Assembly: GCA_016929335.1 (NCBI GenBank)
Contig: JAFGIY010000118.1
Coordinates: 34,494 to 98,493, forward strand
Source: Acidobacteriota bacterium
Lineage (GTDB): Bacteria; Acidobacteriota; UBA6911
Direction of reading: 5' to 3'
Length of the DNA stretch: 64,000 bases
In this document: positions 33,608-42,919 of the stretch, in pieces
Layout: the number at the start of each line of letters is the position of its first letter
Numbering within the stretch: position 1 is the first letter of the stretch
Made by a program: the position numbers and the translations under genes
Notes under the pieces: generated by a model
Told to the model about the DNA's origin: nothing
Database searches by the model: none
Seen by the model: the letters and a program-made list of their open reading frames with translations, nothing else

Positions 33608-34018
33608 TCAGGAGATCTTCTTTCCAGCATCAGCTCCGGGAGAAACAGAAAAGATCTCGTTGATTTTGATAACGATGGCACCCTTCGAATGAAGCGGTAA
33701 TCCCAGTTTTTTGCCTTCCTCTTCCGTCCAGGTTTGAGTTTCATTAAAAACAGGCCCTTCGGTGACCACCGTGGCGGGACCTTTGAATTGATAGCCGGCA
33801 AAACCCTCCCAAATTGAAAGAGCACACACCGGATTTTCCTTAATATTATTAAATGTCTTGGTCATGAAAACGGCCGAAGCGAGAATCGTTTCATCATCCA
33901 CGATCTTCATAAAGTTGATCGGAACGACATTTGGAACGCCCTTCTTGTCTGCTGTGGCTAACTGCTTGATTCCCACGCGGTTGAACATCTCCTGCATTTC
34001 CTTCGTCATCTTTGCCAT
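33608..34018 (-). CDS. Pyridoxamine 5'-phosphate oxidase-family FMN-binding protein
   Basis: LATADKKGVPNVVP, FMTKTFNNIKENP, GYQFKG, SVSPG. Confidence 0.88.
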   Translation of the reverse strand: MAKMTKEMQEMFNRVGIKQLATADKKGVPNVVPINFMKIVDDETILASAVFMTKTFNNIKENPVCALSIWEGFAGYQFKGPATVVTEGPVFNETQTWTEEEGKKLGLPLHSKGAIVIKINEIFSVSPGADAGKKIS

Positions 34019-34234
34019 ATTGATTCTCCCTTTCTTAAATCGATATCAGGAGGACCCCGCTGATAGAAGCTGGGGGGAACAGATTTCCTCTCTTTGAGAT
34101 ATACAATAACCATTTATGTTAAGCAAAACCTTTTCCAATGTATCCAGCCTCATAAGGAATTATGGAAGCAGTATTAGATATTTCTTTCTCCCGGCCAATG
34201 GTATGCAGCCTCGGTGCTGTCCAAATGATGCTAT

Positions 34235-34250
34235 TGGCCGGAATCTTGCA
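34235..34250 (+). promoter_or_regulatory. Possible sigma54 promoter upstream of the Tat-DUF169 gene
   Basis: TGGCCG-GAATC-TTGCA. Confidence 0.5.
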
Positions 34251-34391
34251 TTGCATGTAATCGATTATTATTGCCAATATGCAGGTATATTTTCTTTTGG
34301 TCCACCTATGGTGCCGGGAAGAATTTTGCTTTCCGGTCGGGCAGTAAAGGAACTGATTTTAAGCGAAGCAAACCGACAGGAGGATTCCCCC

Positions 34392-34955
34392 GTGAGAAAC
34401 AAATATTCTCGACGTGAAGCAATTAAGCTAAGTGTAGGGACAGCAGCACTGGGGGTTGCCGGCTCTGCGATATCGGCAGCCGCAACAGGACTGGTTTCCT
34501 ATCCTCAAGGAGCAAAAGGCATGCCGACACTCAGCGAATTCAACAAGTATGGCGAAGAACTGGAAAAGTCTCTTCTGATGAGAATTTCGCCCATAGCCGT
34601 CAAAATGCTGGAGAAGGAGGCGGACATCCCCAAAGGGGCTATCCGGCCCAAAAAAGACCGTGGTTGCCATATTGCTCAGTGCCGGGCATTCGCCATGTCG
34701 CGGCGTGAAGGGACAACCGTAGCCATGCTGAAGGAAGACACCTGGTGTCCGACTTCCGTCATAGCCTACGGCCTCGAAAAAAAACCGGAGTCTCTTGCGA
34801 AATGGGTTCACCCCTACAATTGTTTCGAGCATGGAAAATATATCGGCATTGTCTCTGCGCCTCTAAAATGTGCCAATTCCCTCCCCGATGTTGTCATTGC
34901 ATATCTCAAACCGGCTCAGCTTAGAGGATTGCTGCTATCAGGTTCCCTGCAATAA
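34392..34955 (+). pseudogene. C-terminally truncated DUF169 paralog with twin-arginine leader
   Basis: SRREAIKL leader; body parallels 15308-16090 but stops at TAA soon after PDVVIAY. Confidence 0.6.
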
Positions 34956-34991
34956 TTAACGTCCAGGGTTACGGAATTAATTTTTAACTCT

Positions 34992-37262
34992 TTAAAACAG
35001 AAACCTCAGAGTTGCCCGAATGTTCCGGCCCGGGCTCAGGGCATATAGTTTGTATGTATCCAGAAAACCCTTGTATGCCCTGTCGGCTAGATTACTGATC
35101 CTCAAATCGAAAGCCATCACGTACTTTCCCAAACGTCGCTGCACCCCTGCTCCGAGATCCAGCAGAGCATACCCTGCCGTGTCCAGAGGAAACGGCTCAT
35201 CGGGACCTGAAATGCTTCCTTTTCCCATAAAAGTGCTGCTGATTTCAATGTAAGGATGGATCCAGTCAGCAGATGAATTGTCGTGAAAATGCGCGGCGAA
35301 CATTGCGCGATCCGGCGGAGAAAAAGGCAGCCGAGTTCCGGTGGCTATGTTTTTGGATCGCAACATATCCCCCGCGATACTTAAGGTCAGCCACGGCGAT
35401 GCATCGACAGCCGCCTGCATCTCGAAGCCCTTCACGATCGCGTCGGACTGGTTGAATATGCCGACGGGCAGCCCATCCCGCATTCCGCCGGAGAGCTTCT
35501 GGTAGATGTAGTCGTCAAACCTGCTGCGGTACAAAGCCAGAAATCCTCTTGCCCGGTCCCCTTCCATTCGAAGTGTGAATTCCGTATTGAAATTCGTCTC
35601 TTCCCGCAAATCGGGATTCCCGTTTTCATACAAAAGAGCCCCATCGTGCGGGCCATCTGCGAACAGCTCATATTCGGATGGGTTTCGCCAGCCTCGGCTG
35701 AAGCTCAATCCGGCGGACAGGGTGCGATTGAATCGATAAACGGCTCCCACCGATCCGGTTATGGGAGCATAGCTTTTTCTGAAATCATGGAGAATGCCGC
35801 GTTGCGGATTCGCAGGCAAATCCAGCAGCCGATGGTCATAGCGCAAACCCAGATTCAGAACAAGGCGATCAAGAGTTCCCGATTGTACCAGACGAATTTC
35901 TTCATATAACGCAGCAGCCCAGGTTCGATTTCGATAATAAGGGAGCAGAGTGACCGGCCCGAAGGATTCATTTTTTTGCCGGGTATATTCCATTTGGATC
36001 CATCCACGGAATGGACCGGACGGTTTGTGTTGAAGTGAGGCCCGATAGTTCTGAGTCATCAGCTGCAGGTCAACCTTGGCTCCCCGGGAGCGTCCGGCGG
36101 GGAATGCCTGTCGCGTGTTCCGGGAGATATTCGCGGCTATACGCCAGTCTCCCCAACTCGAAGCACCGGAGGCTTCCATCTCGCCCACGTCGTTCTCCAG
36201 GTTGAGTCGAAAATCCGGCTGGATGGGGATGTAAAAGCCGAGATCGTTTTGCCAGTGTCGATATTGTCCCCTGATACGAAAACCGGCAGGAGATCTGTAA
36301 CCGATTTCCAGAAGGCCAGACAGTTGATCATAGTCTGTATTGGGAAGATCGCCTCCCGGAGTGCGGATATTGTCTGCAGACCGCTGTGTCCAAGCAACGC
36401 GGCCGCCAAAACCTCCTCTTGCTCCTTCAATTTGAGCGTGGCCGATCCTTGCCGCATTATTGTTCGCATATCCGAAAAGGCCTTCACCATTTAATATGTA
36501 ATTCCCCGTCTTCGCTGTCGGGGTTGGCGCCGACACCAGGTTGGCTAATCCGCCCATGGCCTGAGTGCCATACAGGACACTGGCCGGGCCGCGAATGACC
36601 TCAATAAAACTCGAATCATAGGTTTCGATATTTGGCATGTGCCGCCGGCTGAACTGATAATAATCGTGCGGGAATCCATTGCTTAGAACGCGTACCCGCT
36701 CATTCGTCTGCCCACGGATCATCGGCGCGCCACCAGCCTCTCCGGTTGAGATATTCCGGACCCCGGGCAAGTTTCCGACAGCTTCGCCCACGGAAAGTCC
36801 CGTCCGGGCGCGTACCTCAGAGGTATCCAGCACATTGGCTGATTGGGCAACATCCGCTCGGTCCACAGCCCATGGAGCAGCCGTAACCGTTACCGTTTCG
36901 TGAAAGTGCGGGATCGACTGCATTTCAATCTCCAGGTCCTCCTCTACGGGGACCTGAAGAACAAAGCGCTGCTCAACAAACTGAGGATGAGAAGCAAGCA
37001 TGGTATAGCGGCCCGGATTGACAGACTCCAGAGAAAACCGCCCTTCGGAATTAGTGACACTTCTAACGGACATTTCCACAAGACGTACAACAACGCCTGG
37101 TATAGGGTCTTGGCTGCCAGCCTGGATAATGCGGCCTCTCAATTTGCCGTCATCTCCGCCGGCTGCTGCACACGGCAACAGAAGCATCAGCAGAAAGACA
37201 AGTAGGATACAGGCAAAAAACCGGATAAAAATCCTCATAAATGCAAAAGCAGATCGTTGCAT
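34992..37262 (-). CDS. TonB-dependent receptor with N-terminal carboxypeptidase-regulatory-like domain
   Basis: ETVTVTA, IRG, IEVIRGPASVLYG, NPDLREE, NLAD, terminal Phe. Confidence 0.93.
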   Translation of the reverse strand: MQRSAFAFMRIFIRFFACILLVFLLMLLLPCAAAGGDDGKLRGRIIQAGSQDPIPGVVVRLVEMSVRSVTNSEGRFSLESVNPGRYTMLASHPQFVEQRFVLQVPVEEDLEIEMQSIPHFHETVTVTAAPWAVDRADVAQSANVLDTSEVRARTGLSVGEAVGNLPGVRNISTGEAGGAPMIRGQTNERVRVLSNGFPHDYYQFSRRHMPNIETYDSSFIEVIRGPASVLYGTQAMGGLANLVSAPTPTAKTGNYILNGEGLFGYANNNAARIGHAQIEGARGGFGGRVAWTQRSADNIRTPGGDLPNTDYDQLSGLLEIGYRSPAGFRIRGQYRHWQNDLGFYIPIQPDFRLNLENDVGEMEASGASSWGDWRIAANISRNTRQAFPAGRSRGAKVDLQLMTQNYRASLQHKPSGPFRGWIQMEYTRQKNESFGPVTLLPYYRNRTWAAALYEEIRLVQSGTLDRLVLNLGLRYDHRLLDLPANPQRGILHDFRKSYAPITGSVGAVYRFNRTLSAGLSFSRGWRNPSEYELFADGPHDGALLYENGNPDLREETNFNTEFTLRMEGDRARGFLALYRSRFDDYIYQKLSGGMRDGLPVGIFNQSDAIVKGFEMQAAVDASPWLTLSIAGDMLRSKNIATGTRLPFSPPDRAMFAAHFHDNSSADWIHPYIEISSTFMGKGSISGPDEPFPLDTAGYALLDLGAGVQRRLGKYVMAFDLRISNLADRAYKGFLDTYKLYALSPGRNIRATLRFLF

Positions 37263-37266
37263 TTTT

Positions 37267-37331
37267 GTGCCCTCGATTTGAATTGGACATCAAGGCTGGG
37301 AACTCCTGGCATCAAATCGATGGAGGGGCAC
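37267..37331 (-). promoter_or_regulatory. Predicted SD-sequestering hairpin between the RAPP codons and the receptor RBS
   Basis: mRNA GUGCCC(CUCCA)UCGAUUUGA pairs with UCAAAUCGA-GGGCAC, which contains the GAGGG SD. Confidence 0.65.
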
Positions 37332-37617
37332 GAACTGCCATGCAGGCCCGGTCCGATGATATGCTGTTTGAGATCCGCGCCGGAGAAAGCGGATGATTGG
37401 CTATCAGAAGAACGGGCAAAAAGACCGAAGGGATGAAGTACTGCAGTGTATGGCCGATGACGTTGCAAATCAGGCAGTGATGTGAGGACCCTCCGCCATC
37501 ATTGTGGTCGATAGCATGAACGCATAAATGTATGAATGCAATTGCAGGCAAGGCTAGAGCGACAATACCGGCCGCTATTGCCGCCCTTCGGAATTTCAGC
37601 CTCCAGTGGCTCATCAT
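37312..37617 (-). CDS. DUF2946-like His/CxxC leader peptide ending in RAPP
   Basis: TM, HLCVHAIDH...HHCLIC, C-terminal RAPPSI; AAGGGA SD. Confidence 0.8.
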   Translation of the reverse strand: MMSHWRLKFRRAAIAAGIVALALPAIAFIHLCVHAIDHNDGGGSSHHCLICNVIGHTLQYFIPSVFLPVLLIANHPLSPARISNSISSDRACMAVRAPPSI

Positions 37618-37671
37618 GACCTATCGTTCCCTTAGGAAACCACATCCCCATTTGTGCAAAAGCACCTGTCA

Positions 37672-38835
37672 CTAAAGCTGGGGCCCGCTTTCAATTGAGG
37701 AAATACCGCGAAGACGATGAACGGTATTCTTCAAGGCTTCGACAACAGCCCGGATGTCTTCTTCACGATTATCCTTGCCGAAGGAAATCCTGATGGAGCC
37801 CTGCGCTTCCTTGGACGAAAGTCCCATGGCAAGAAGGACGTGCGATGGTTCCGGATCTCCCGTGGAACAGGCGGAACCTGTCGAGATATAAATGCCTCGG
37901 AGATCCAAACTGAAAACAATGGATTCACCATCCACAGAATCAAAACTGATGCTGGAGGTATTCGGCACCCGCGGAGCAGAAGCGCCGTTGATTCGCACTC
38001 CAGGCAAAACAGAACGGATTTCATCCTCGAACTTGTCTCGTAGATGCCGTAAACGGCTGTATTCACTTTCAGCAGACTCAGCAGCCAGATCCAGCGCATG
38101 GGACAGCCCCACAATTCCCGCGACGTTTTCTGTTCCGGCGCGATGGCCTCGTTCATGAGGCCCGCCCGTAAGAAGGGGATCAAGCGGTGTTCCCTCACGA
38201 ACATACAGCGCAGCCGTTCCCTTGGGACCATAGAACTTGTGACCGGAAATAGAAATGAGGTCCGCGCCCAGCCCGCACAATTTGTGAGGCATCTTCCCGG
38301 CCGTCTGAACGGCATCGGTGTGCAACAGGATCGCGCGATTTTTAGCCAATGCGGCAATCTCCTCCACAGGCTGGATTACTCCGGTTTCGTTGTTGGCGTG
38401 CATAATGGTTATAAGCACCGTTTCACTGCAGAGGTTCTTTTCCACATCTTCAATTCTGGCAGCGCCATCAGAACCGACGGGAAGATAGGTAATCCGGAAG
38501 CCTTCCGCTTCCAGAGCCTTGCAGGTATTCAGAATGGCATGATGCTCAATGGCCGTTGTCACAATGTGATTGCCGCGATGCAAAAGCGCGCTCGCCACGC
38601 CTCGCACAGCCAGATTGTCTGATTCCGTTCCGCAGGATGTGAAGACGATTTCCTCGGGCTTGCAGCCGAAGTGTCCGGCAACACTCTCCCTTGCCTTCTC
38701 GGTTGCGATCTTGGCTTGATTGCCGAAACTATAGGGACTGGATGGATTGCCCCAACGCTTGGTCAGATACGGCATCATGGCTTCCAGGACTCGACTATCC
38801 AGGGGAGTCGTAGCGTTGTGATCAAGGTAAATCAC
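37672..38835 (-). CDS. nifS: Cysteine desulfurase (NifS/IscS)
   Basis: YLDHNATTP, GNPSS, HTDAVQ, SGHKFYGPKG, STGSAC. Confidence 0.93.
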   Translation of the reverse strand: MIYLDHNATTPLDSRVLEAMMPYLTKRWGNPSSPYSFGNQAKIATEKARESVAGHFGCKPEEIVFTSCGTESDNLAVRGVASALLHRGNHIVTTAIEHHAILNTCKALEAEGFRITYLPVGSDGAARIEDVEKNLCSETVLITIMHANNETGVIQPVEEIAALAKNRAILLHTDAVQTAGKMPHKLCGLGADLISISGHKFYGPKGTAALYVREGTPLDPLLTGGPHERGHRAGTENVAGIVGLSHALDLAAESAESEYSRLRHLRDKFEDEIRSVLPGVRINGASAPRVPNTSSISFDSVDGESIVFSLDLRGIYISTGSACSTGDPEPSHVLLAMGLSSKEAQGSIRISFGKDNREEDIRAVVEALKNTVHRLRGISSIESGPQL

Positions 38836-38837
38836 TG

Positions 38838-39287
38838 CTATTTCTCCTTATCCTCGGATTGTCTGCTTTCCCAGTCTCTAATGGCAGCCTGAAGCGCCAT
38901 TACTCCAAGAAGCGAGCAGTGCTTTTTCCTTTCCGGAATTCCTCCAAGCGCTTCCACTACCTCATCGTCTGTGATGCGCCTGGCTTCGTCTATCGACTTC
39001 CCTTTTGCCAGATCGGTCAGCATGCTGCTTGTCGCAATGGCTCCGGGGCATCCGAACGATTTAAATGCAATTTTGTCGATATGGCCCGAGCGGACAGAAA
39101 TCCACAGCTTCATCTGATCACCACAGGACGGATCCCCAACCAAGCCATATCCATCGGTCTCATTCTCCGGCAACTCCCCTACATTGCGCGGATTCATGAA
39201 ATGATCGATGACAGCCTCGCTGTAGTAAAGGATCGGCCCGGAATATTCAGGCTGCATTTCATTTTCATCATCTGAAGACGTATCCAT
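38838..39287 (-). CDS. nifU: Fe-S scaffold (NifU N-terminal/IscU type)
   Basis: DHFMNPRNVG, GDPSCGD, FGC, KHCS. Confidence 0.9.
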   Translation of the reverse strand: MDTSSDDENEMQPEYSGPILYYSEAVIDHFMNPRNVGELPENETDGYGLVGDPSCGDQMKLWISVRSGHIDKIAFKSFGCPGAIATSSMLTDLAKGKSIDEARRITDDEVVEALGGIPERKKHCSLLGVMALQAAIRDWESRQSEDKEK

Positions 39288-39335
39288 TAAGCGACCCCCC
39301 AACCGGTTTCTGCGAACTTAACAACGGCACATCAG

Positions 39336-39350
39336 GCAATCTATATACCA
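39336..39350 (-). promoter_or_regulatory. sigma54 promoter of nifU-nifS
   Basis: Minus strand TGGTAT-ATAGA-TTGC; ATGCAATATGCAC box at 39416-39428. Confidence 0.65.
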
Positions 39351-39517
39351 TAATGCTCAGAATCCAGAACATTTTGAGAACAAGGCAAATCGGGAGGATA
39401 ACACAACCAGGAGCTATGCAATATGCACGATTCCATGCGGCAAATTCATACGGGGTGGGAGAAGCAAAGTCCCGCTCCTGATAAGCCTGATGGTGGATCT
39501 TCGCTATACTCCTTAAT

Positions 39518-39964
39518 CTATATCAAATCACGGTTTATATACTTTGCAAAGCCTCGTACCAATACCTTCCCATATTGTTCCAGTTCCGCCTCCAACACAT
39601 AAAGCGGCGGCTCATATTCCCGGATCCAGGCTCTAACCGTTGCGGACTTATCGGTTTCGACGGGAAAGAGGAAACGCACAATCAGCCTGGCCGTCACCGC
39701 AACAATCCGATGAGCGAAAAGGCAGTTGGCCATCGCCGAATCCAGCAGTAAAGAGCTTATACCTCCATGAAGATAGCCCGGATAGCCTTGATATAGCGGA
39801 CTGCAATTGAACTCAGCCTGAACTCCACCGTCATCCCGAACGGAAAATTTTAGCCCGAGCCCGGATCCATTTTCCATACTGCAACCGATACAGGCCGGAT
39901 GTTCCTGTTGTCTTATGTTTTCCAGCAGCTGCTGTGTAGGATCGGTCATTAAAATCGGCTCCAT
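39518..39964 (-). CDS. PaaI family hotdog thioesterase
   Basis: CIGC..N..GLGLKF, QGYPGYLHGG, LLD. Confidence 0.88.
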   Translation of the reverse strand: MEPILMTDPTQQLLENIRQQEHPACIGCSMENGSGLGLKFSVRDDGGVQAEFNCSPLYQGYPGYLHGGISSLLLDSAMANCLFAHRIVAVTARLIVRFLFPVETDKSATVRAWIREYEPPLYVLEAELEQYGKVLVRGFAKYINRDLI

Positions 39965-40024
39965 CGGCTTTGTCCGGACTTCCTCAGCATTAATAAACCC
40001 GGTTTGCCGCCGCCTGCCATGTTT

Positions 40025-40399
40025 TTAGTGCCCGCATTGACCGCCGTGTTCTTTGCAGGAATCATCCATGGACAATTCCTGGAGACTGTTTTCTCCCAGC
40101 AATGCCATATTCTCACTCACGGTCGGAGCACCCGCCCTGTAGACCTTCACACCCATTGCATTTAACTTCATAATTGCTCCGGGTCCGATTCCGCCCACAA
40201 CCAGTGCATCAAGACTGTTTCCTCCAAGAGTCGCAATCGGATTGCATACGCCGTGTTCACGATGGGCGTTTGAATTATCTACTGCCGAAATCTGATTCAG
40301 CTCCGTATCGACGATAACAAATGCGGGAGCCGAGCCAAAATGACCGTATACAGTGCTTTGTAATCCCTCATTAAACTGAACCGCAAATCCAACCTTCAT
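40025..40399 (-). CDS. NifB/NifX family protein
   Basis: VYGHFGSAPAF, HGVC, GGIG, C..HGGQCGH tail; AAGGAG SD. Confidence 0.88.
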   Translation of the reverse strand: MKVGFAVQFNEGLQSTVYGHFGSAPAFVIVDTELNQISAVDNSNAHREHGVCNPIATLGGNSLDALVVGGIGPGAIMKLNAMGVKVYRAGAPTVSENMALLGENSLQELSMDDSCKEHGGQCGH

Positions 40400-40473
40400 C
40401 TTTTTCTCCTTTGATTTTCAGGAGGGTATCTCACGCTATGGAGACAGCCTCCTGCCATTTATGCGCTTCTTAT

Positions 40474-40488
40474 GCAATTATTTGGCCC
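40474..40488 (-). promoter_or_regulatory. Weak candidate sigma54 promoter of NifX-PaaI
   Basis: Minus strand GGGCCA-AATAA-TTGC (GG-N10-GC). Confidence 0.35.
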
Positions 40489-40648
40489 TAGTACCGGGAT
40501 ATAAGGCTCACGTGCCCCGGGGCATCGTGTTTCTGTTATCATAATATCCTCAGGGGTACAATCATTGCGTTGCTCAATCAGTCCATTCTGACAGCAAAAG
40601 CCCCGAATAAAGGGATTATCATACCATAGCGTACGGAGGATTCGTTTT

Positions 40649-41395
40649 ATGTTGGTTGATGAAATTGTAGAACAAGGTCTTGCGATGGCGGATCCGCATA
40701 TCGCCGTGGATATTCGAATCGGCCTTGGTTATACGGCGGTGCGTCTGGAGAACGGGCGTTGCGGATTAGGTTATACGCTGCATGAAAAAGAATATGAATC
40801 CTGTTGCGTAATGCCGGATGCAGGCAGCCTGGCCGGACGAAAGGCGTCGGAGCTTATAGCGTGGATGAAATCTCCGGATGTAACCGCATGTGCTGTCGCA
40901 TTGGCAACTCTCAACGCCTTGATTACAGCCCCTTCCGCGGCTGCTGCTTCGGATATTCTCGACCTGATACCCATCGGGCCGGAAGATGCGGTTGGAATGA
41001 TCGGCTATTTCGGACCGCTGGTAGAGCCAATAAAAAAGAAAGCCCGCGCACTGCACATCTTCGAACGCAAGCCGGAACCCGAATATCAAATACTGCCCGA
41101 ATCAGCGACAAAGGATCTTCTTCCCCAATGCCAGGTTGTTATAGTGACTGCGACCTCGCTCCTGAACCATACCATTGACGGGCTTCTTGATTTGTCCAGG
41201 GAAGCCCGGGAAGTCGCAATTCTGGGACCTTCCACTCCCTTCCTTCCGGAAATTTTCAAACGCCATGGAGTAACAGTGCTTTCCGGCGTGCAGGTCGAAG
41301 ATCCGGCAAAAGTACTTCAAATTGTCAGTGAAGCGGGAGGCACGCGCCAGTTCCTCCGGGCAACCCGCAAGTTGTCCCTGCGTTGTACAGCCTGA
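40649..41395 (+). CDS. DUF364 (putative heavy-metal chelation, Rossmann-like) protein
   Basis: IGLGYTAV, ATLNA, VGMIGYF.P, SLLNHT, LGPSTP. Confidence 0.85.
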   Translation: MLVDEIVEQGLAMADPHIAVDIRIGLGYTAVRLENGRCGLGYTLHEKEYESCCVMPDAGSLAGRKASELIAWMKSPDVTACAVALATLNALITAPSAAAASDILDLIPIGPEDAVGMIGYFGPLVEPIKKKARALHIFERKPEPEYQILPESATKDLLPQCQVVIVTATSLLNHTIDGLLDLSREAREVAILGPSTPFLPEIFKRHGVTVLSGVQVEDPAKVLQIVSEAGGTRQFLRATRKLSLRCTA

Positions 41396-41460
41396 CAATA
41401 ATTCTTCCAATGAAAGCGCACGCTATTTCATGTTATCTCTCTCCTGCTTTTTGAAATTTT

Positions 41461-41504
41461 TTGCAGAATGCAATAATTTTGGAAATATTCGGTGCATAAT
41501 GCAA
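41461..41504. promoter_or_regulatory. Pair of TGCA-N3-TGCA boxes upstream of the second activator
   Basis: TTGCAGAATGCAA (41461) and GTGCATAATGCAA (41492), 31 bp apart. Confidence 0.6.
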
Positions 41505-41527
41505 TAATCCGTTAGGAGAAGATTATA

Positions 41528-42919
41528 GTGAAAGAACTGGATGGACGAGAAAAAACAATTCTGGACTCGATTAACGAAGGCGTCTTCACTGTGGATTTGG
41601 AATGGCGGATCACGGCTTTCAACCGCGCCGCCGAGCATATCACGCAGGTCAGCCGGCGCGAAGCTCTCGGGCAACAGTGCTGTGATGTTTTCCGGGCAAG
41701 CATCTGTGAAAATGCCTGTGCGCTGAGGCGAACCATGTCCAGCGGCAAGCCGATTCTCAATGCTACTGCCCATATCATAAGCAGGAGCGGAGAACGTATC
41801 CCAATCCGCATATCAACCGCGCTGCTGAAAGACGATAAAGGACACATTATTGGAGGAGTCGAAACGTTTCGGGATTTAAGCTCAATTGAACAGCTTCAGA
41901 AGGAACTGAAGGCCCGATACACATTTGAAGACATCGTTGGCCACAGTGCGGCGATGATCAAGCTTTTTGAAATTCTGCCGCAGATCGCCGACAGTTCCAG
42001 CACCGTCCTGATCGAAGGTCCCAGCGGCACGGGCAAGGAACTTTTCGCACGAGCCATTCACAGCCTCTCTCCGCGAAAGAAAAAGCCTTTTATTGCAATC
42101 AATTGCGCGGCGCTACCCGACACTCTGCTGGAAAGCGAACTGTTCGGGCATAAGGCAGGCGCATTCACAGATGCCAGGCGCGACAAGCCGGGGCGGTTTG
42201 CTCTTGCAAACGGGGGAACCTTGTTTCTGGACGAAATCGGAGATATCTCTCCGGCAATGCAGATACGGCTTTTGCGCGTGCTTCAGGAACGGATGATTGA
42301 ACCTTTGGGATCCGTGGAGCCAACCAGGGTGGATGTCCGCATTGTAACGGCCACTAATCGCGATTTGGCGCAGCTGGTACAGGAGGGACGTTTTCGTGAA
42401 GACTTGTATTACCGCATCCGCGTCATCTGCATGCGCCTGCCCAGCCTTAGCCAGCGCAGAGAAGATATCCCTCTGCTTGTGGAGCATCTTGTGGCGAAGC
42501 TTAATCGAATCCAGGGGAAGGAAATTGAAGGCGTATCCGAAGAGGTTATGGCGCAGCTGATGGAATATGAATACCCCGGAAATGTCCGTGAACTGGAAAA
42601 CATTATCGAACAGGCGTTTGTCTTGTGCCGTGGCCCGATCATTGAGCTGCACCACCTCCCGGCCGAACTCCGGCCTTCCGATCCGGCCAGCTATCACGGA
42701 ACTAATCCAATGTCATTGGAAGCTATGGAAAAGCTCCTGATAAGCGAGGCTCTTCGACGCCATAAAGGCAGCCGGAGCAAAGCGGCCAAACAGCTGGGAA
42801 TCAATCCAAGCACCCTGTACCGCAAACTGAAAGCCTTGAATATTGATTTCAGGAAAGAGAGTATTCCGGCACGCGCAAGATCGCTGGGCAGAATTATTGC
42901 AAAAAACAGCACTGCCTGA
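41528..42919 (+). CDS. PAS-domain sigma54-dependent activator (OrpR-like paralog)
   Basis: C-x8-C-x3-C PAS; [28 protein letters not shown]; Fis HTH. Confidence 0.93.

What the first reader, a model, noticed from the sequence alone, without database searches (positions are those of the whole stretch)
34992..37617. Candidate metal-sensing ribosome-stalling switch: RAPP leader codons base-pair with the TonB receptor RBS
Seen: a 101-aa ORF (TM, HLCVHAIDH...HHCLIC, ending RAPPSI*) stops 49 nt before a TonB-dependent receptor. On the mRNA its final codons GUGCCC-CUCCA-UCGAUUUGA (37331-37312) are complementary to UCAAAUCGA-GGGCAC (37281-37267): 15 bp with a 5-nt bulge, burying the GAGGG SD 7 nt before the receptor ATG. 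Known: RAPP-like motifs arrest ribosomes, and DUF2946 leaders (Bordetella CruR, Rhodobacter CutF) give copper-responsive control of downstream genes. Inference: a ribosome stalled at RAPP opens the hairpin and licenses receptor translation, while metal binding to the His/Cys segment relieves it. The His-rich sensor, probable Acidobacteriota host and position behind sigma54-driven nifU-nifS suggest a new variant, possibly sensing Ni/Zn/Co and tied to Fe-S status.
Basis: partly seen in the sequence, partly recalled or inferred. Interest (0 to 1): 0.85.

Follow-up and report, generated by a model that had tools for sequence, protein, structure and literature searches.

The report
Metal-sensing stalling leader before TonB receptor
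A small upstream gene ending in the ribosome-stalling motif RAPP sits in front of an outer-membrane receptor gene; it is a diverged relative of the known copper-sensing leaders CruR and CutF, and its relatives share a promoter control site with a zinc transporter gene, so it may sense zinc.

Summary
The 101-aa ORF (37312-37617, minus strand), its His/Cys cluster, the RAPPSI* end, the 49-nt gap and the 15-bp bulged hairpin over the receptor's Shine-Dalgarno (SD) site are all present as described. CruR is a DUF2946 leader with CXXC and RAPP placed before a TonB transporter. CutF is a leader whose stall melts a stem-loop that hides an SD. RAPP/RGPP uORFs before TonB receptors are already described as widespread. 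This ORF has the family's layout: an export signal, CxxC, exactly 44 residues, RAPP and a short tail. It scores below Pfam's DUF2946 cut-off and belongs to a tiny clade found in 6 of 30 genomes of one Acidobacteriota genus, always with the same receptor. The hairpin is only partly conserved. It is predicted in 4 of 7 loci and beats synonymous recoding at the 5% level in three, and there is no consensus helix. Pro-Pro codons pair with SD sites anyway. New here: in 5 of 7 loci the leader has its own promoter overlapped by a palindrome that recurs before a ZIP zinc transporter gene, and the receptor's closest solved relative is ZnuD. Zinc is therefore the likeliest ligand. The window's copy lacks that promoter and sits 54 nt behind nifS. 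Verdict: a new variant of a known kind, of moderate interest.

The parts
37312..37617 (-). Leader ORF, 101 aa, of the CruR/CutF type (DUF2946-like)
   Evidence: Pfam DUF2946 E 0.011, 17.0 bits, below the 23.7 cut-off. Orthologues in 5 sister genomes plus 1 metagenome contig.
37531..37584 (-). Hydrophobic export signal or signal anchor (residues 12-29), after R6, K8, R10, R11, with an A-x-A motif at residues 25-27
   Evidence: Read directly. No signal-peptide predictor was run. AF2 models residues 3-41 as a helix (low confidence).
37465..37530 (-). Candidate metal-binding segment, residues 30-51. H30, C48 and C51 are invariant in 14 of 14 sequences and H38 is conserved in 13 of 14. The CxxC codons are at 37465-37476.
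   Evidence: Alignments A1 and A5.
37321..37332 (-). RAPP arrest-motif codons CGU GCC CCU CCA (R96-P99). They lie 44 residues after CxxC and 2 codons before the stop.
   Evidence: RAPP is invariant in 14 of 14 sequences. [quoted passage not shown]
37312..37331 (-). 5' arm of the hairpin: GUGCCC, CUCCA bulge, UCGAUUUGA. It covers the R/A/P codons, the tail codons and the stop codon.
37267..37281 (-). 3' arm of the hairpin, UCAAAUCGA-GGGCAC, containing the SD GAGGG (37270-37274)
34992..37262 (-). TonB-dependent receptor, 756 aa. Its closest solved relative is the zinc receptor ZnuD.
   Evidence: An orthologue occurs in exactly the 6 of 30 genus genomes that carry the leader.
37618..37671 (-). 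54-nt gap between the nifS-like stop and the leader ATG. It has no promoter-like or terminator-like site and lacks the palindrome-bearing promoter found in 5 of 7 related loci.
37672..39302 (-). Upstream NifU_N (38838-39302) and class-V aminotransferase/NifS-like (37672-38835) genes on the same strand
   Evidence: Synteny in all six genomes.
40473..40488 (-). Sigma54-type -24/-12 element GGGCCAAATAATTGCA, 89 nt before the NifX-like gene (40025-40399). It is the probable promoter of the upstream operon.
   Evidence: present in 5 of 6 loci. A sigma54 activator gene lies at 41528-42919 (+).

Best explanation
The ORF is a cis-acting, metal-sensing arrest-peptide leader of the CruR/CutF kind that controls the TonB-dependent receptor behind it. 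[quoted passage not shown] This stall position is inferred from published work on RAPP. In that position the ribosome covers the whole 5' arm of the hairpin, from the RAPP codons to the stop codon. The SD/ATG of the receptor, about 50 nt further on, then loses its main pairing partner and can be loaded by a 30S subunit. The paused ribosome may also block Rho. At the moment of the stall the nascent chain's ligand set (H30, H38, C48, C51, with C51 lying 47 residues before P98) has just left the exit tunnel. When the metal is plentiful it binds this set. Binding or folding pulls the chain and releases the arrest. The ribosome terminates, the hairpin re-forms and receptor synthesis falls. This is the CruR polarity, which suits an uptake receptor. 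The metal is most likely zinc. In most relatives a Zur-like operator adds a transcriptional layer. In this genome that promoter is missing and the pair appears to be read through from the nifU-nifS operon, which would leave the leader as the main metal checkpoint. What is shown here: the anatomy, the conservation of motifs and spacing, the co-inheritance with the receptor, the shared operator with a ZIP gene, and the predicted fold. What is inferred: the stalling itself, its release by metal, the direction of control and the identity of the metal.
For: Architecture. A charged N-terminus and hydrophobic segment are followed by CxxC, exactly 44 residues, then RAPP and 2-5 tail residues in all 7 loci. 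CruR has CXXC, 45 residues and RAPP three residues from the end, with spacing conserved to within 1-2 residues, and more than 95% of the family carry an export signal (PMC9426467, section 9). Canonical DUF2946 genes from other Acidobacteriota show CxxC, 43-44 residues and R[AG]PP (two larger values of 47 and 49 come from the regular expression catching an earlier Cys pair).

Sequence links. Pfam DUF2946 is the best hit, aligned to the profile's C-terminal end. It is hit by 6 of 10 clade members. hhalign of clade against canonical members gives E 5.5e-5 and 66% probability over the CxxC block.

Leader-like conservation. The leader is only 31-44% identical between loci whose neighbours are 64-90% identical, yet H30, C48, C51 and RAPP are invariant.

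Coupling. Leader and receptor occur together in exactly 6 of 30 genus genomes. The gap between them is 46-59 nt in all 7 loci.

Hairpin. The predicted probability that the SD pairs with the stalled ribosome's footprint is 0.80 (window), 1.00, 0.99 and 0.80 in 4 of 7 loci. Blocking the footprint lowers the cost of opening the ribosome-binding site from 10.1 to 6.7, 13.5 to 5.4, 12.9 to 7.1 and 14.8 to 11.6 kcal/mol. Synonymous recodings reach the observed pairing in 4.3%, 1.7% and 2.7% of cases for the three closest loci.

Precedents. CruR arrest has been shown in vitro, with the two Pro codons in the P and A sites (PMC12992588). RAPP stall structures are solved (PMC10951233). The CutF stall melts an SD-shielding stem-loop (PMC9973294).

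Zinc. The palindrome TGCRAAT-NN-ATTTGCA overlaps the -35 of a TTGCAT-N17-TAATAA promoter before the leader in 5 of 7 loci. Exact matches in the five sister genomes fall only there and, in three of them, just before a ZIP zinc-transporter gene; the control pattern gave 1 hit. A fourth genome has a one-mismatch site before its ZIP gene. Zur boxes are palindromes that often overlap the -35, and Zur regulons typically contain zupT and TonB receptors (PMC6103462). The receptor's best solved relative is ZnuD (E 9.2e-26).
Against: No experiment, toeprint or RNA data exist for this locus. The leader is below Pfam's curated cut-off, and hhalign aligns only 20 columns.

The hairpin is not a conserved feature of the clade. 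In 3 of 7 loci the SD does not pair with the leader's end (probabilities 0.02, 0.33, 0.02), and blocking the footprint does not lower the opening cost. RNAalifold finds no shared long-range helix; the consensus energy is -0.8 kcal/mol. The pairing registers differ between loci. By duplex energy, only the window (2.1%) and L038 (8.5%) are near or beyond the synonymous-recoding tail; the others lie at 22-53%. The baseline complementarity is already -10 to -18 kcal/mol, because CGN-GCN-CCN-CCN is intrinsically complementary to a G-rich SD. Even with the footprint blocked, the window's SD is still predicted to be 0.91 paired, with residual structure costing 6.7 kcal/mol.

Zinc is indirect. The regulator is unidentified. 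ZIP transporters can carry other cations. The window's own genome has no strong copy of the palindrome (best weight-matrix score 17.5, against 25.5-38.3 for the training sites) and only a degenerate one before its ZIP gene. The receptor is far below the ZnuD model's cut-off (127.6 bits against 950) and scores similarly on heme-receptor models. All relatives are metagenome-assembled genomes of one genus, so the 7 loci are not independent.
Confidence: 0.6

Rival explanations
1. The same arrest-peptide leader, read out as in CruR. The stalled ribosome blocks Rho-dependent termination or polarity, and release by metal lets Rho terminate before the receptor. The RAPP-codon:SD hairpin is then an incidental consequence of Pro-Pro codons lying near a G-rich SD, or at most a secondary aid.
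For: CruR, the only characterised leader before a TonB transporter, works through Rho, with a rut site in a C>G bubble inside cruR (PMC9426467, section 11). A C>G excess of +12 to +28% in 78-nt windows lies 100-230 nt before the stop in 6 of 7 leaders, and is +8% in the seventh. The hairpin is absent from 3 of 7 loci and has no consensus. Synonymous controls are unremarkable in 5 of 7 loci. Canonical DUF2946 loci with 62-145-nt gaps show the same pairing in a hit-or-miss fashion, at 0.90, 0.80, 0.65, 0.43, 0, 0 and 0.
Against: The gap here is 46-59 nt, against 162 bp in Bordetella, where long gaps were argued to be needed (PMC9426467). In the window and its two closest relatives the pairing exceeds synonymous expectation. 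The C>G bias may simply reflect Pro, Leu, Ser and His codons. No tool here can test Rho dependence.
Confidence: 0.25
2. The leader senses a metal other than zinc: copper as in CruR/CutF, iron given the adjacent Fe-S assembly genes and the heme-type receptor hits, or Ni/Co.
For: All characterised family members respond to copper, and CxxC is a classic Cu(I) motif (PMC9426467, PMC9973294). The receptor's top NCBIfam hit is the heme/hemoglobin subfamily, at 137.7 bits against 127.6 for ZnuD. nifU-nifS adjacency is conserved in all six genomes. His-only CutF-like clusters are linked to Ni/Co (PMC9973294, section 11). ZIP transporters are not strictly zinc-specific (recalled, not from a call).
Against: The receptor is not of the OprC/NosA copper type: TIGR01778 scores 30.1 bits against a 472 cut-off, over the plug only. 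No copper-homeostasis gene lies in the conserved neighbourhood. The operator is shared with a ZIP gene and has very few exact genomic copies, which is the pattern of a small Zur-type regulon rather than a large Fur regulon. In 5 of 7 loci the pair is a separate transcription unit from nifS.
Confidence: 0.3
3. The ORF encodes a stable small exported metal-binding protein, such as a chaperone or receptor partner, that acts in trans. RAPP and the hairpin give only ordinary translational coupling, not metal-regulated arrest.
For: CutF was first conjectured to be a copper chaperone (noted in PMC9426467, section 11). The leader has a likely cleavable signal and a conserved His/Cys set. Any terminating ribosome would melt a hairpin that overlaps the stop codon.
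Against: Outside the motifs the sequence is poorly conserved, at 31-44% identity against 67-75% for the receptor. It is predicted to be largely unstructured (pLDDT 63). The fixed 44-residue distance between CxxC and RAPP in 7 of 7 loci and in distant canonical members makes sense for a nascent-chain sensor but not for a folded chaperone. RAPP is generally avoided in proteomes unless it is used for arrest (PMC12992588, passages).
Confidence: 0.07
4. CutF polarity: metal binding strengthens the stall and induces the receptor, which would then serve a function needed under metal excess.
For: This is the demonstrated behaviour of CutF, and it uses an SD-shielding stem-loop like the one seen here (PMC9973294; abstract of bioRxiv 10.1101/2025.02.05.636593).
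Against: The downstream gene is an uptake-type receptor. It shares a repressor-style operator with an importer gene. CruR, the closest analogue with a TonB transporter, shows the opposite polarity (PMC9426467).
Confidence: 0.05

Closest known systems
CruR (Bp2923) of Bordetella pertussis, a DUF2946 leader before the TonB transporter gene bfrG (PMC9426467; arrest shown in vitro in PMC12992588)
   Same: Both are small ORFs with an export signal, CXXC, a fixed spacer of about 45 residues and RAPP 2-3 residues from the C-terminus. Both sit directly upstream of a TonB-dependent transporter. The proposed logic is the same: stall means on, metal releases the stall.
   Different: This ORF is below the Pfam DUF2946 cut-off. 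It is 101 aa against about 145. It has extra conserved His residues (H30, H38). The gap is 49 nt against 162 bp. The anti-SD lies inside the arrest codons, whereas CruR uses a Rho terminator. In this genome the ORF is not the first gene of its operon. The likely ligand is zinc rather than copper. The host phylum is Acidobacteriota.
CutF of Rhodobacter capsulatus, a DUF2946 leader of cutFOG (PMC9973294; bioRxiv 10.1101/2025.02.05.636593, abstract only)
   Same: A C-terminal proline-rich stall motif in an exported nascent chain is followed by a stem-loop that shields the SD of the next gene and is melted by the stalled ribosome, across a short intergenic gap.
   Different: CutF has CxxxC and a PPP-type motif, is EF-P dependent, and copper enhances its stall to induce a detoxifying oxidase. 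Its anti-SD lies in the intergenic stem-loop. Here the anti-SD arm is the RAPP, tail and stop codons themselves, and the expected polarity is the opposite.
RAPP/RGPP arrest peptides (ApdA, ApdP, SecM-like) and RAPP/RGPP uORFs upstream of TonB receptors (PMC10951233, PMC12992588)
   Same: All have a C-terminal RAPP close to the stop codon and an N-terminal localisation signal. TonB-receptor genes are a listed, enriched class of downstream genes across Gram-negative phyla.
   Different: Those surveys do not mention zinc ('zinc' occurs 0 times in the PMC12992588 main text). In the passages I saw, they do not describe the arrest codons acting as the anti-SD. The supplements were not available.
Zur-regulated zinc receptors (ZnuD of Neisseria; zupT plus TonB receptors in Cupriavidus) (PMC6103462; PDB 4rdr)
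   Same: The receptor's best solved relative is ZnuD. The palindromic operator overlaps the -35 and is shared with a ZIP (ZupT-type) transporter gene.
   Different: The receptor is not a ZnuD orthologue (127.6 bits against a 950 cut-off). In the passages read, no Zur-regulated receptor is described with a RAPP leader. The operator is missing at the window's own locus.

Membership tests
Pfam PF11162 (DUF2946) | Score at or above the curated gathering threshold (23.7 bits) | tested here: not met
   17.0 bits, E 0.011, residues 37-99 aligned to profile positions 53-117 of 117; 6 of 10 clade members hit the family, best E 0.0065. NCBIfam: no hit.
CruR-type DUF2946 leaders (as defined in PMC9426467) | Conserved CXXC motif | tested here: met
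   C48-L-I-C51, invariant in 14 of 14 clade sequences.
CruR-type DUF2946 leaders | C-terminal RAPP motif a few residues before the stop | tested here: met
   R96-A-P-P99, then 2 residues. Invariant in 14 of 14 sequences, with a 2-5 residue tail in the 7 loci.
CruR-type DUF2946 leaders | Spacing between CXXC and RAPP of about 45 residues, conserved to within 1-2 | tested here: met
   44 residues in 7 of 7 loci. 43-44 in canonical Acidobacteriota DUF2946 genes.
CruR-type DUF2946 leaders | N-terminal signal peptide or Nin-Cout transmembrane segment | tested here: inconclusive
   Basic residues, an 18-residue hydrophobic stretch and A-x-A at residues 25-27 were read. No dedicated predictor is available here.
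CruR-type DUF2946 leaders | First gene of an operon with metal-homeostasis genes such as a TonB transporter | tested here: inconclusive
   The ORF lies directly before a TonB receptor in 7 of 7 loci. It is first behind its own promoter in 5 of 7 loci. In the window and in L038 it sits 54 and 49 nt behind nifS with no promoter detected.
CruR-type DUF2946 leaders | RAPP-dependent ribosome arrest relieved by the metal; Rho-dependent readout | not testable with these tools
   This needs toeprinting, a PURE translation system or reporter assays. Only a C>G bubble was seen.
CutF-type leaders (PMC9973294) | Stem-loop shielding the downstream SD that a stalled ribosome can melt | tested here: inconclusive
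   Predicted in the window and in 3 further loci of the 7. Absent in 3. No consensus helix.
CutF-type leaders | CxxxC motif and a PPP-type, EF-P-dependent stall | tested here: not met
   The motif is CxxC, not CxxxC, and the window has RAPPSI with only two Pro residues. EF-P dependence cannot be tested here.
ZnuD zinc receptors (NCBIfam NF038289) | Score at or above the model cut-off (950 bits) | tested here: not met
   127.6 bits. ZnuD is nevertheless the best PDB hit, 4rdr, E 9.2e-26.
Zur regulon member | Palindromic operator overlapping the promoter and shared with known zinc-uptake genes; Zn-dependent binding by Zur | tested here: inconclusive
   The operator is shared with a ZIP gene in 4 of 5 sister genomes. 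It is absent at the window's locus and degenerate before the window genome's ZIP gene. Binding was not tested. Two Fur-family genes exist in the genome.

The most novel reading that the evidence does not exclude
This would be the first zinc-responsive nascent-chain sensor: a RAPP arrest leader whose His2Cys2 set binds Zn as it leaves the ribosome and so releases the stall. The arrest codons themselves (CGN GCN CCN CCN plus the tail) act as the anti-Shine-Dalgarno for a ZnuD-like receptor, so that one stalled ribosome is both sensor and switch. In most relatives this acts beneath a Zur-type operator shared with a ZIP importer gene. In this genome the Zur promoter has been lost and the module has been captured by a sigma54-driven nifU-nifS operon, which leaves the leader as the only zinc checkpoint. 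More broadly, Pro-Pro arrest codons doubling as anti-SD elements may be a general, unrecognised design feature of DUF2946 leaders, since it is predicted in 4 of 7 canonical loci as well.
Probability: 0.3. Interest if true: 0.7.

Novelty: new variant of a known kind. Interest (0 to 1): 0.45.

Why it matters
Post-transcriptional sensing of metals high in the Irving-Williams series has so far been shown only for copper, through CruR and CutF. Roy et al. point out that no riboswitch is known for Cu or Zn. A zinc-responsive member would extend the nascent-chain sensor principle to a second metal. It would also give a compact natural example of two-tier control of zinc uptake, with Zur acting on transcription and the leader on translation. 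The locus further shows that the family reaches beyond what the Pfam DUF2946 model detects, because this clade is unannotated in public databases. The observation that Pro-Pro arrest codons are built-in anti-SD sequences is both a caution against over-reading such hairpins and a testable design idea. If none of this holds, the locus is simply one more CruR-like leader, which is ordinary.

Tried and rejected
1. Word-indexed homologue search with the single leader found nothing at E <= 0.01 among 15 candidates. The profile search returned only 7 unannotated clade members and no protein labelled PF11162.

2. The search for related loci with alignment A1 failed because no stretch was conserved enough. 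I built the closer sub-alignment A2 and ran it. It gave 1 locus in genome contigs and 1 in metagenome contigs, so only 7 loci were available for covariation.

3. RNAalifold on the 7 loci gave no long-range consensus, only a 4-bp UUCC:GGAG local pairing. I did not run the count of structure pairs, because the stems use different registers and no common column structure could be written.

4. Rfam at E <= 1 over 34000-41000 gave 0 matches, so no known riboswitch or leader RNA is present.

5. The promoter/terminator scan found no sigma70-like promoter or intrinsic terminator between nifS and the receptor on the minus strand. The hairpin is not followed by a U-tract.

6. The sigma54 consensus search with up to 2 mismatches was at chance level: 29 matches against 34.8 expected. 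The element before the NifX-like gene has 3 mismatches and was found by eye and confirmed in 5 of 6 loci.

7. AlphaFold2 on the 14-sequence alignment gave mean pLDDT 63.2 and pTM 0.32. It shows an N-terminal helix and no reliable metal-site geometry, so I made no fold search.

8. Sequencing runs: no RNA holder is listed.

9. Extending the operator search to 2 mismatches was too noisy: 33-122 hits per genome against 9-56 for the control. One recurrent 2-mismatch site lies between MutY-like and GcrA-like genes in an AT-rich spacer, and I set it aside as probably unrelated. The two exact hits in the window's own genome lie inside long ORFs and were treated as chance.

11. Supplementary tables of PMC9426467, PMC9973294 and PMC12992588 could not be opened. 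They list thousands of DUF2946, CutF-like and RAPP uORFs by taxon and may already contain Acidobacteriota or even this clade. 'Acidobacteri' occurs 0 times in the main text of PMC9973294 and once in PMC12992588, in a figure legend on proteome bias.

12. The statement that no zinc-sensing DUF2946 leader is in print rests (full-text searches 'DUF2946'+'copper' and 'DUF2946'+'zinc') and on the 0 occurrences of 'zinc'. The only link found is a Caulobacter table that lists DUF2946 genes among Zur-affected genes (PMC4176598).

13. I recalled from memory a resemblance of the palindrome to actinobacterial Zur and Nur boxes. This was not checked and is not used as evidence.

Full report
**1. Observation**

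On the minus strand, the ORF at 37312-37617 encodes 101 residues. It begins with a basic N-terminus (R6, K8, R10, R11) and a hydrophobic stretch at residues 12-29. A His/Cys cluster follows: H30-L-C-V-H-A-I-D-H38, then H46-H-C48-L-I-C51. The protein ends R96-A-P-P99-S-I-stop.

The next gene (34992-37262) starts 49 nt later. It is a 756-aa TonB-dependent receptor with CarboxypepD_reg, Plug and barrel domains.

GUGCCC (37331-37326), a CUCCA bulge and UCGAUUUGA (37320-37312, ending in the stop codon) pair with UCAAAUCGA-GGGCAC (37281-37267). That 3' arm contains the Shine-Dalgarno (SD) sequence GAGGG, 7 nt before the ATG.

RNAfold gives this helix as both the minimum-free-energy and the centroid structure of a 96-nt segment (-27.9 kcal/mol). 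The statistical support is modest: z = -1.87, and 12 of 200 shuffles fold at least as well.

**2. What the ORF is**

Pfam's best hit is DUF2946, below threshold (E 0.011, 17.0 bits against 23.7). The match aligns residues 37-99 to the C-terminal half of the profile. NCBIfam has no hit.

- CruR of Bordetella pertussis is a DUF2946 upstream ORF before the TonB transporter gene bfrG. [quoted passage not shown] More than 95% of these carry an export signal. Stalling at RAPP prevents Rho-dependent termination, and copper sensed through CXXC relieves the stall (PMC9426467; abstract and sections 9-11 read).
- A 2025 survey reports RAPP/RGPP small ORFs enriched upstream of TonB-dependent receptors. 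[quoted passage not shown] The same paper shows CruR arrest in vitro with the two Pro codons in the P and A sites (PMC12992588, passages).

The window's ORF fits this layout precisely. It has CxxC, 44 intervening residues, RAPP and a 2-residue tail.

**3. Relatives**

The leader belongs to a very small, unannotated clade.
- HMMER against 1.84 billion representatives found 9 proteins at E <= 0.001. A profile search of the 5.8-billion-cluster set found 7, none with a Pfam label.
- In whole genomes it was found in 6 of 30 genomes of one genus, counting the window's own. It was not found in the 21 genomes of the family's other ten genera. It was found in none of the other 400 genomes in an even sample of the phylum (1 of 401, the window's own).
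- One relative's record is titled an uncultured Acidobacteriota MAG. One more locus came from a metagenome contig (L038).
- In all 7 loci the spacing from CxxC to RAPP is exactly 44 residues, the tail is 2-5 residues and the gap to the next ATG is 46-59 nt.
- In a 14-sequence alignment H30, C48, L49, C51 and RAPP are invariant, and H38 is conserved in 13 of 14.
- The leader is 31-44% identical between loci whose flanking genes are 64-90% identical. That is the pattern expected of a leader peptide in which only the functional motifs are constrained.
- The receptor orthologue (67-75% identity) occurs in exactly the same 6 of 30 genomes, so leader and receptor form one module.
- Canonical, above-threshold DUF2946 genes exist in 7 of 401 sampled Acidobacteriota genomes. 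They show CxxC, 43-44 residues, R[AG]PP and a 1-9 residue tail.
- hhalign between the clade and these canonical members gives E 5.5e-5 and 66% probability, over only 20 columns around CxxC.

I therefore read the ORF as working like a CruR/CutF leader and as a probable distant relative. By Pfam's own criterion it is not a member.

**4. The hairpin across loci**

I modelled a ribosome stalled with P98 in the P site as occluding positions -12 to +15. In the window this covers the whole 5' arm, through the stop codon.

| Locus | P(SD pairs inside footprint) | Synonymous recodings reaching it | Opening cost of the ribosome-binding site, free → footprint blocked (kcal/mol) |
|---|---|---|---|
| window | 0.80 | 4.3% | 10.1 → 6.7 |
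| L043 | 1.00 | 1.7% | 13.5 → 5.4 |
| L038 | 0.99 | 2.7% | 12.9 → 7.1 |
| L041 | 0.80 | 14% | 14.8 → 11.6 |
| L040 | 0.33 | 36-42% | no decrease |
| L039 | 0.02 | 36-42% | no decrease |
| L042 | 0.02 | 36-42% | no decrease |

A direct duplex-energy test puts only the window (2.1%) and L038 (8.5%) near the tail. The remaining loci lie at 22-53%. The synonymous background is already -10 to -18 kcal/mol, because CGN-GCN-CCN-CCN is inherently complementary to GGAGG-type SD sites.

RNAalifold finds no shared long-range helix, and the stems use different registers. The window pairs GUGCCC with GGGCAC. L043 and L038 pair CCUCCUC with GAGGAGG.

Seven canonical DUF2946 loci with 62-145-nt gaps show the same hit-or-miss behaviour: 0.90, 0.80, 0.65, 0.43, 0, 0 and 0.

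The stem is real in the window and better than synonymous chance in its subclade. It is not a conserved feature of the clade, and part of it is a by-product of coding. A CruR-style Rho readout remains a serious rival. Six of 7 leaders have a C>G excess of +12 to +28% in their distal half, though this may be only a codon-composition effect.

**5. Context and which metal**

All six genomes share this gene order: sigma54 activator and DUF364/DUF4213 (divergent), then NifX-like, 4HBT, NifU_N, NifS-like, leader and receptor, then a convergent DUF169 gene. A GG-N10-GC sigma54-type element lies 84-107 nt before the NifX-like gene in 5 of 6 loci. In the window it is at 40473-40488.

The leader is not generally part of that operon. 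The gap between nifS and the leader is 184-374 nt in 5 loci. There it holds a TTGCAT-N17-TAATAA promoter whose -35 is overlapped by the palindrome TGCRAAT-NN-ATTTGCA. Only the window (54 nt) and L038 (49 nt) lack it.

Exact matches to the palindrome in the five sister genomes number 8 sites. Five lie before the leader. Three lie immediately before a gene whose product is a ZIP zinc transporter (PF02535, E 1e-15 to 1e-17). The control pattern gave 1 hit. A fourth genome has a one-mismatch site, plus a second site, before its ZIP orthologue.

Published descriptions fit this arrangement. Zur boxes are palindromes that often overlap the -35, are sometimes duplicated, and sit in regulons that typically hold zupT and TonB receptors (PMC6103462, passages).

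The receptor's best solved relative is the zinc receptor ZnuD (4rdr, E 9.2e-26). It is far from the ZnuD model's cut-off and similar in score to heme-receptor models. It is not of the copper OprC type.

The invariant or near-invariant H30, H38, C48 and C51 make a His2Cys2 set. Taken together, zinc is the most likely ligand. I put this at about 55-60%, with copper, iron and Ni/Co sharing the rest.

There are caveats. The regulator is unidentified, although two Fur-family genes exist in the genome. The window's own genome has no strong copy of the box and only a degenerate one before its ZIP gene.

**6. Mechanism proposed**

Shown here: the anatomy, the conserved motifs and spacing, the module's co-inheritance, the predicted fold and the shared operator. 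Inferred: everything below.

1. Arrest occurs at RAP/P.
2. At that moment C51 is 47 residues and H30 is 68 residues from the peptidyl-transferase centre, so the ligand set lies just outside the exit tunnel.
3. Metal binding there releases the arrest, as proposed for CruR.
4. While stalled, the ribosome removes the anti-SD arm and may also block Rho, so the receptor is made. After release the hairpin re-forms and receptor synthesis falls.
5. In this genome the loss of the Zur-type promoter and the 54-nt junction to nifS suggest read-through from the sigma54 operon. The leader would then be the remaining metal checkpoint.

**7. Novelty and score**

Four things are new.
- A sub-threshold, genus-restricted Acidobacteriota clade.
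- Regulon evidence pointing to zinc rather than copper. No zinc-responsive DUF2946 leader turned up. The only link is a Caulobacter Zur-regulon table that lists DUF2946 genes (PMC4176598).
- An anti-SD arm made of the arrest and stop codons themselves.
- A non-first operon position in this genome.

I rate it a new variant of a known kind, with interest 0.45.

Limits: there are no experimental or RNA data. There are seven related loci, all from MAGs or metagenomes.

Noticed in passing
L043, L039, L040, L041, L042 (184-374 nt between nifS and the leader); ZIP loci L056, L059, L060, L092: A palindrome TGCRAAT-NN-ATTTGCA overlaps the -35 of a TTGCAT-N17-TAATAA promoter before the leader in 5 of 7 loci. 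It recurs, sometimes twice, before a ZIP zinc-transporter gene in 4 of 5 sister genomes. It is probably a Zur-type operator, but the regulator has not been identified.
   Followed up: yes
G000 contig C52:13747-14540 (outside the window): The window genome's ZIP orthologue (75% identity over 241 aa) has only a degenerate version of the palindrome, AATGCCAACACATTCGCAAC. The genome has no strong copy anywhere: the best weight-matrix score is 17.5, against 25.5-38.3 in the sister genomes.
   Followed up: partly
window 40473-40488 (-) and the equivalent places in L040-L043: A sigma54-type GG-N10-GC element lies 84-107 nt before the NifX-like gene in 5 of 6 loci. Further upstream is a conserved AATGCAAT-N2-3-GCATACC-like motif, possibly the activator's binding site. 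Its ATGCAA half resembles the leader's palindrome, which is unexplained.
   Followed up: partly
window 37283-37290 (-) and alignment A4 columns 78-95: A conserved intergenic motif (A/G)UUCCAU lies about 10 nt before the SD in all 7 loci. Its UUCC can pair with GGAG of the SD (4 bp), and in L043 it pairs with the leader's tail codons. It may be a second, competing anti-SD.
   Followed up: partly
window 37672-42919 and syntenic loci: The cluster of sigma54 activator (PAS-AAA-HTH), DUF364/DUF4213 ('putative heavy-metal chelation'), NifX-like, 4HBT thioesterase, NifU_N and NifS-like genes is conserved in all six genomes that carry the leader-receptor module. Its function is unknown, and the reason for the adjacency was not explored.
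   Followed up: no
L044-L052 (canonical DUF2946 loci of other Acidobacteriota): In 4 of 7 canonical loci the SD of the downstream gene is also predicted to pair with the RAPP/RGPP codon region (0.43-0.90). This suggests that Pro-Pro arrest codons commonly double as anti-SD, whether by selection or by composition.
   Followed up: partly
L048 (G364:C1): Two DUF2946-type ORFs, both with CxxC, 44 aa and RGPPA*, lie about 1.4 kb apart on the same strand.
   Followed up: no
P0005 (representative protein): One clade member reads ...VRA and then diverges into a 30-residue unrelated tail instead of PP. It looks like a frameshifted or misassembled copy.
   Followed up: no
L106, L107, L108 (G004:C81, G027:C210, G022:C76): A 2-mismatch copy of the palindrome (TTGCAAAT-RC-ATTTCAAT) is conserved in an AT-rich spacer between divergent MutY-like and GcrA-like genes in three genomes. 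It is probably unrelated to metal control.
   Followed up: partly
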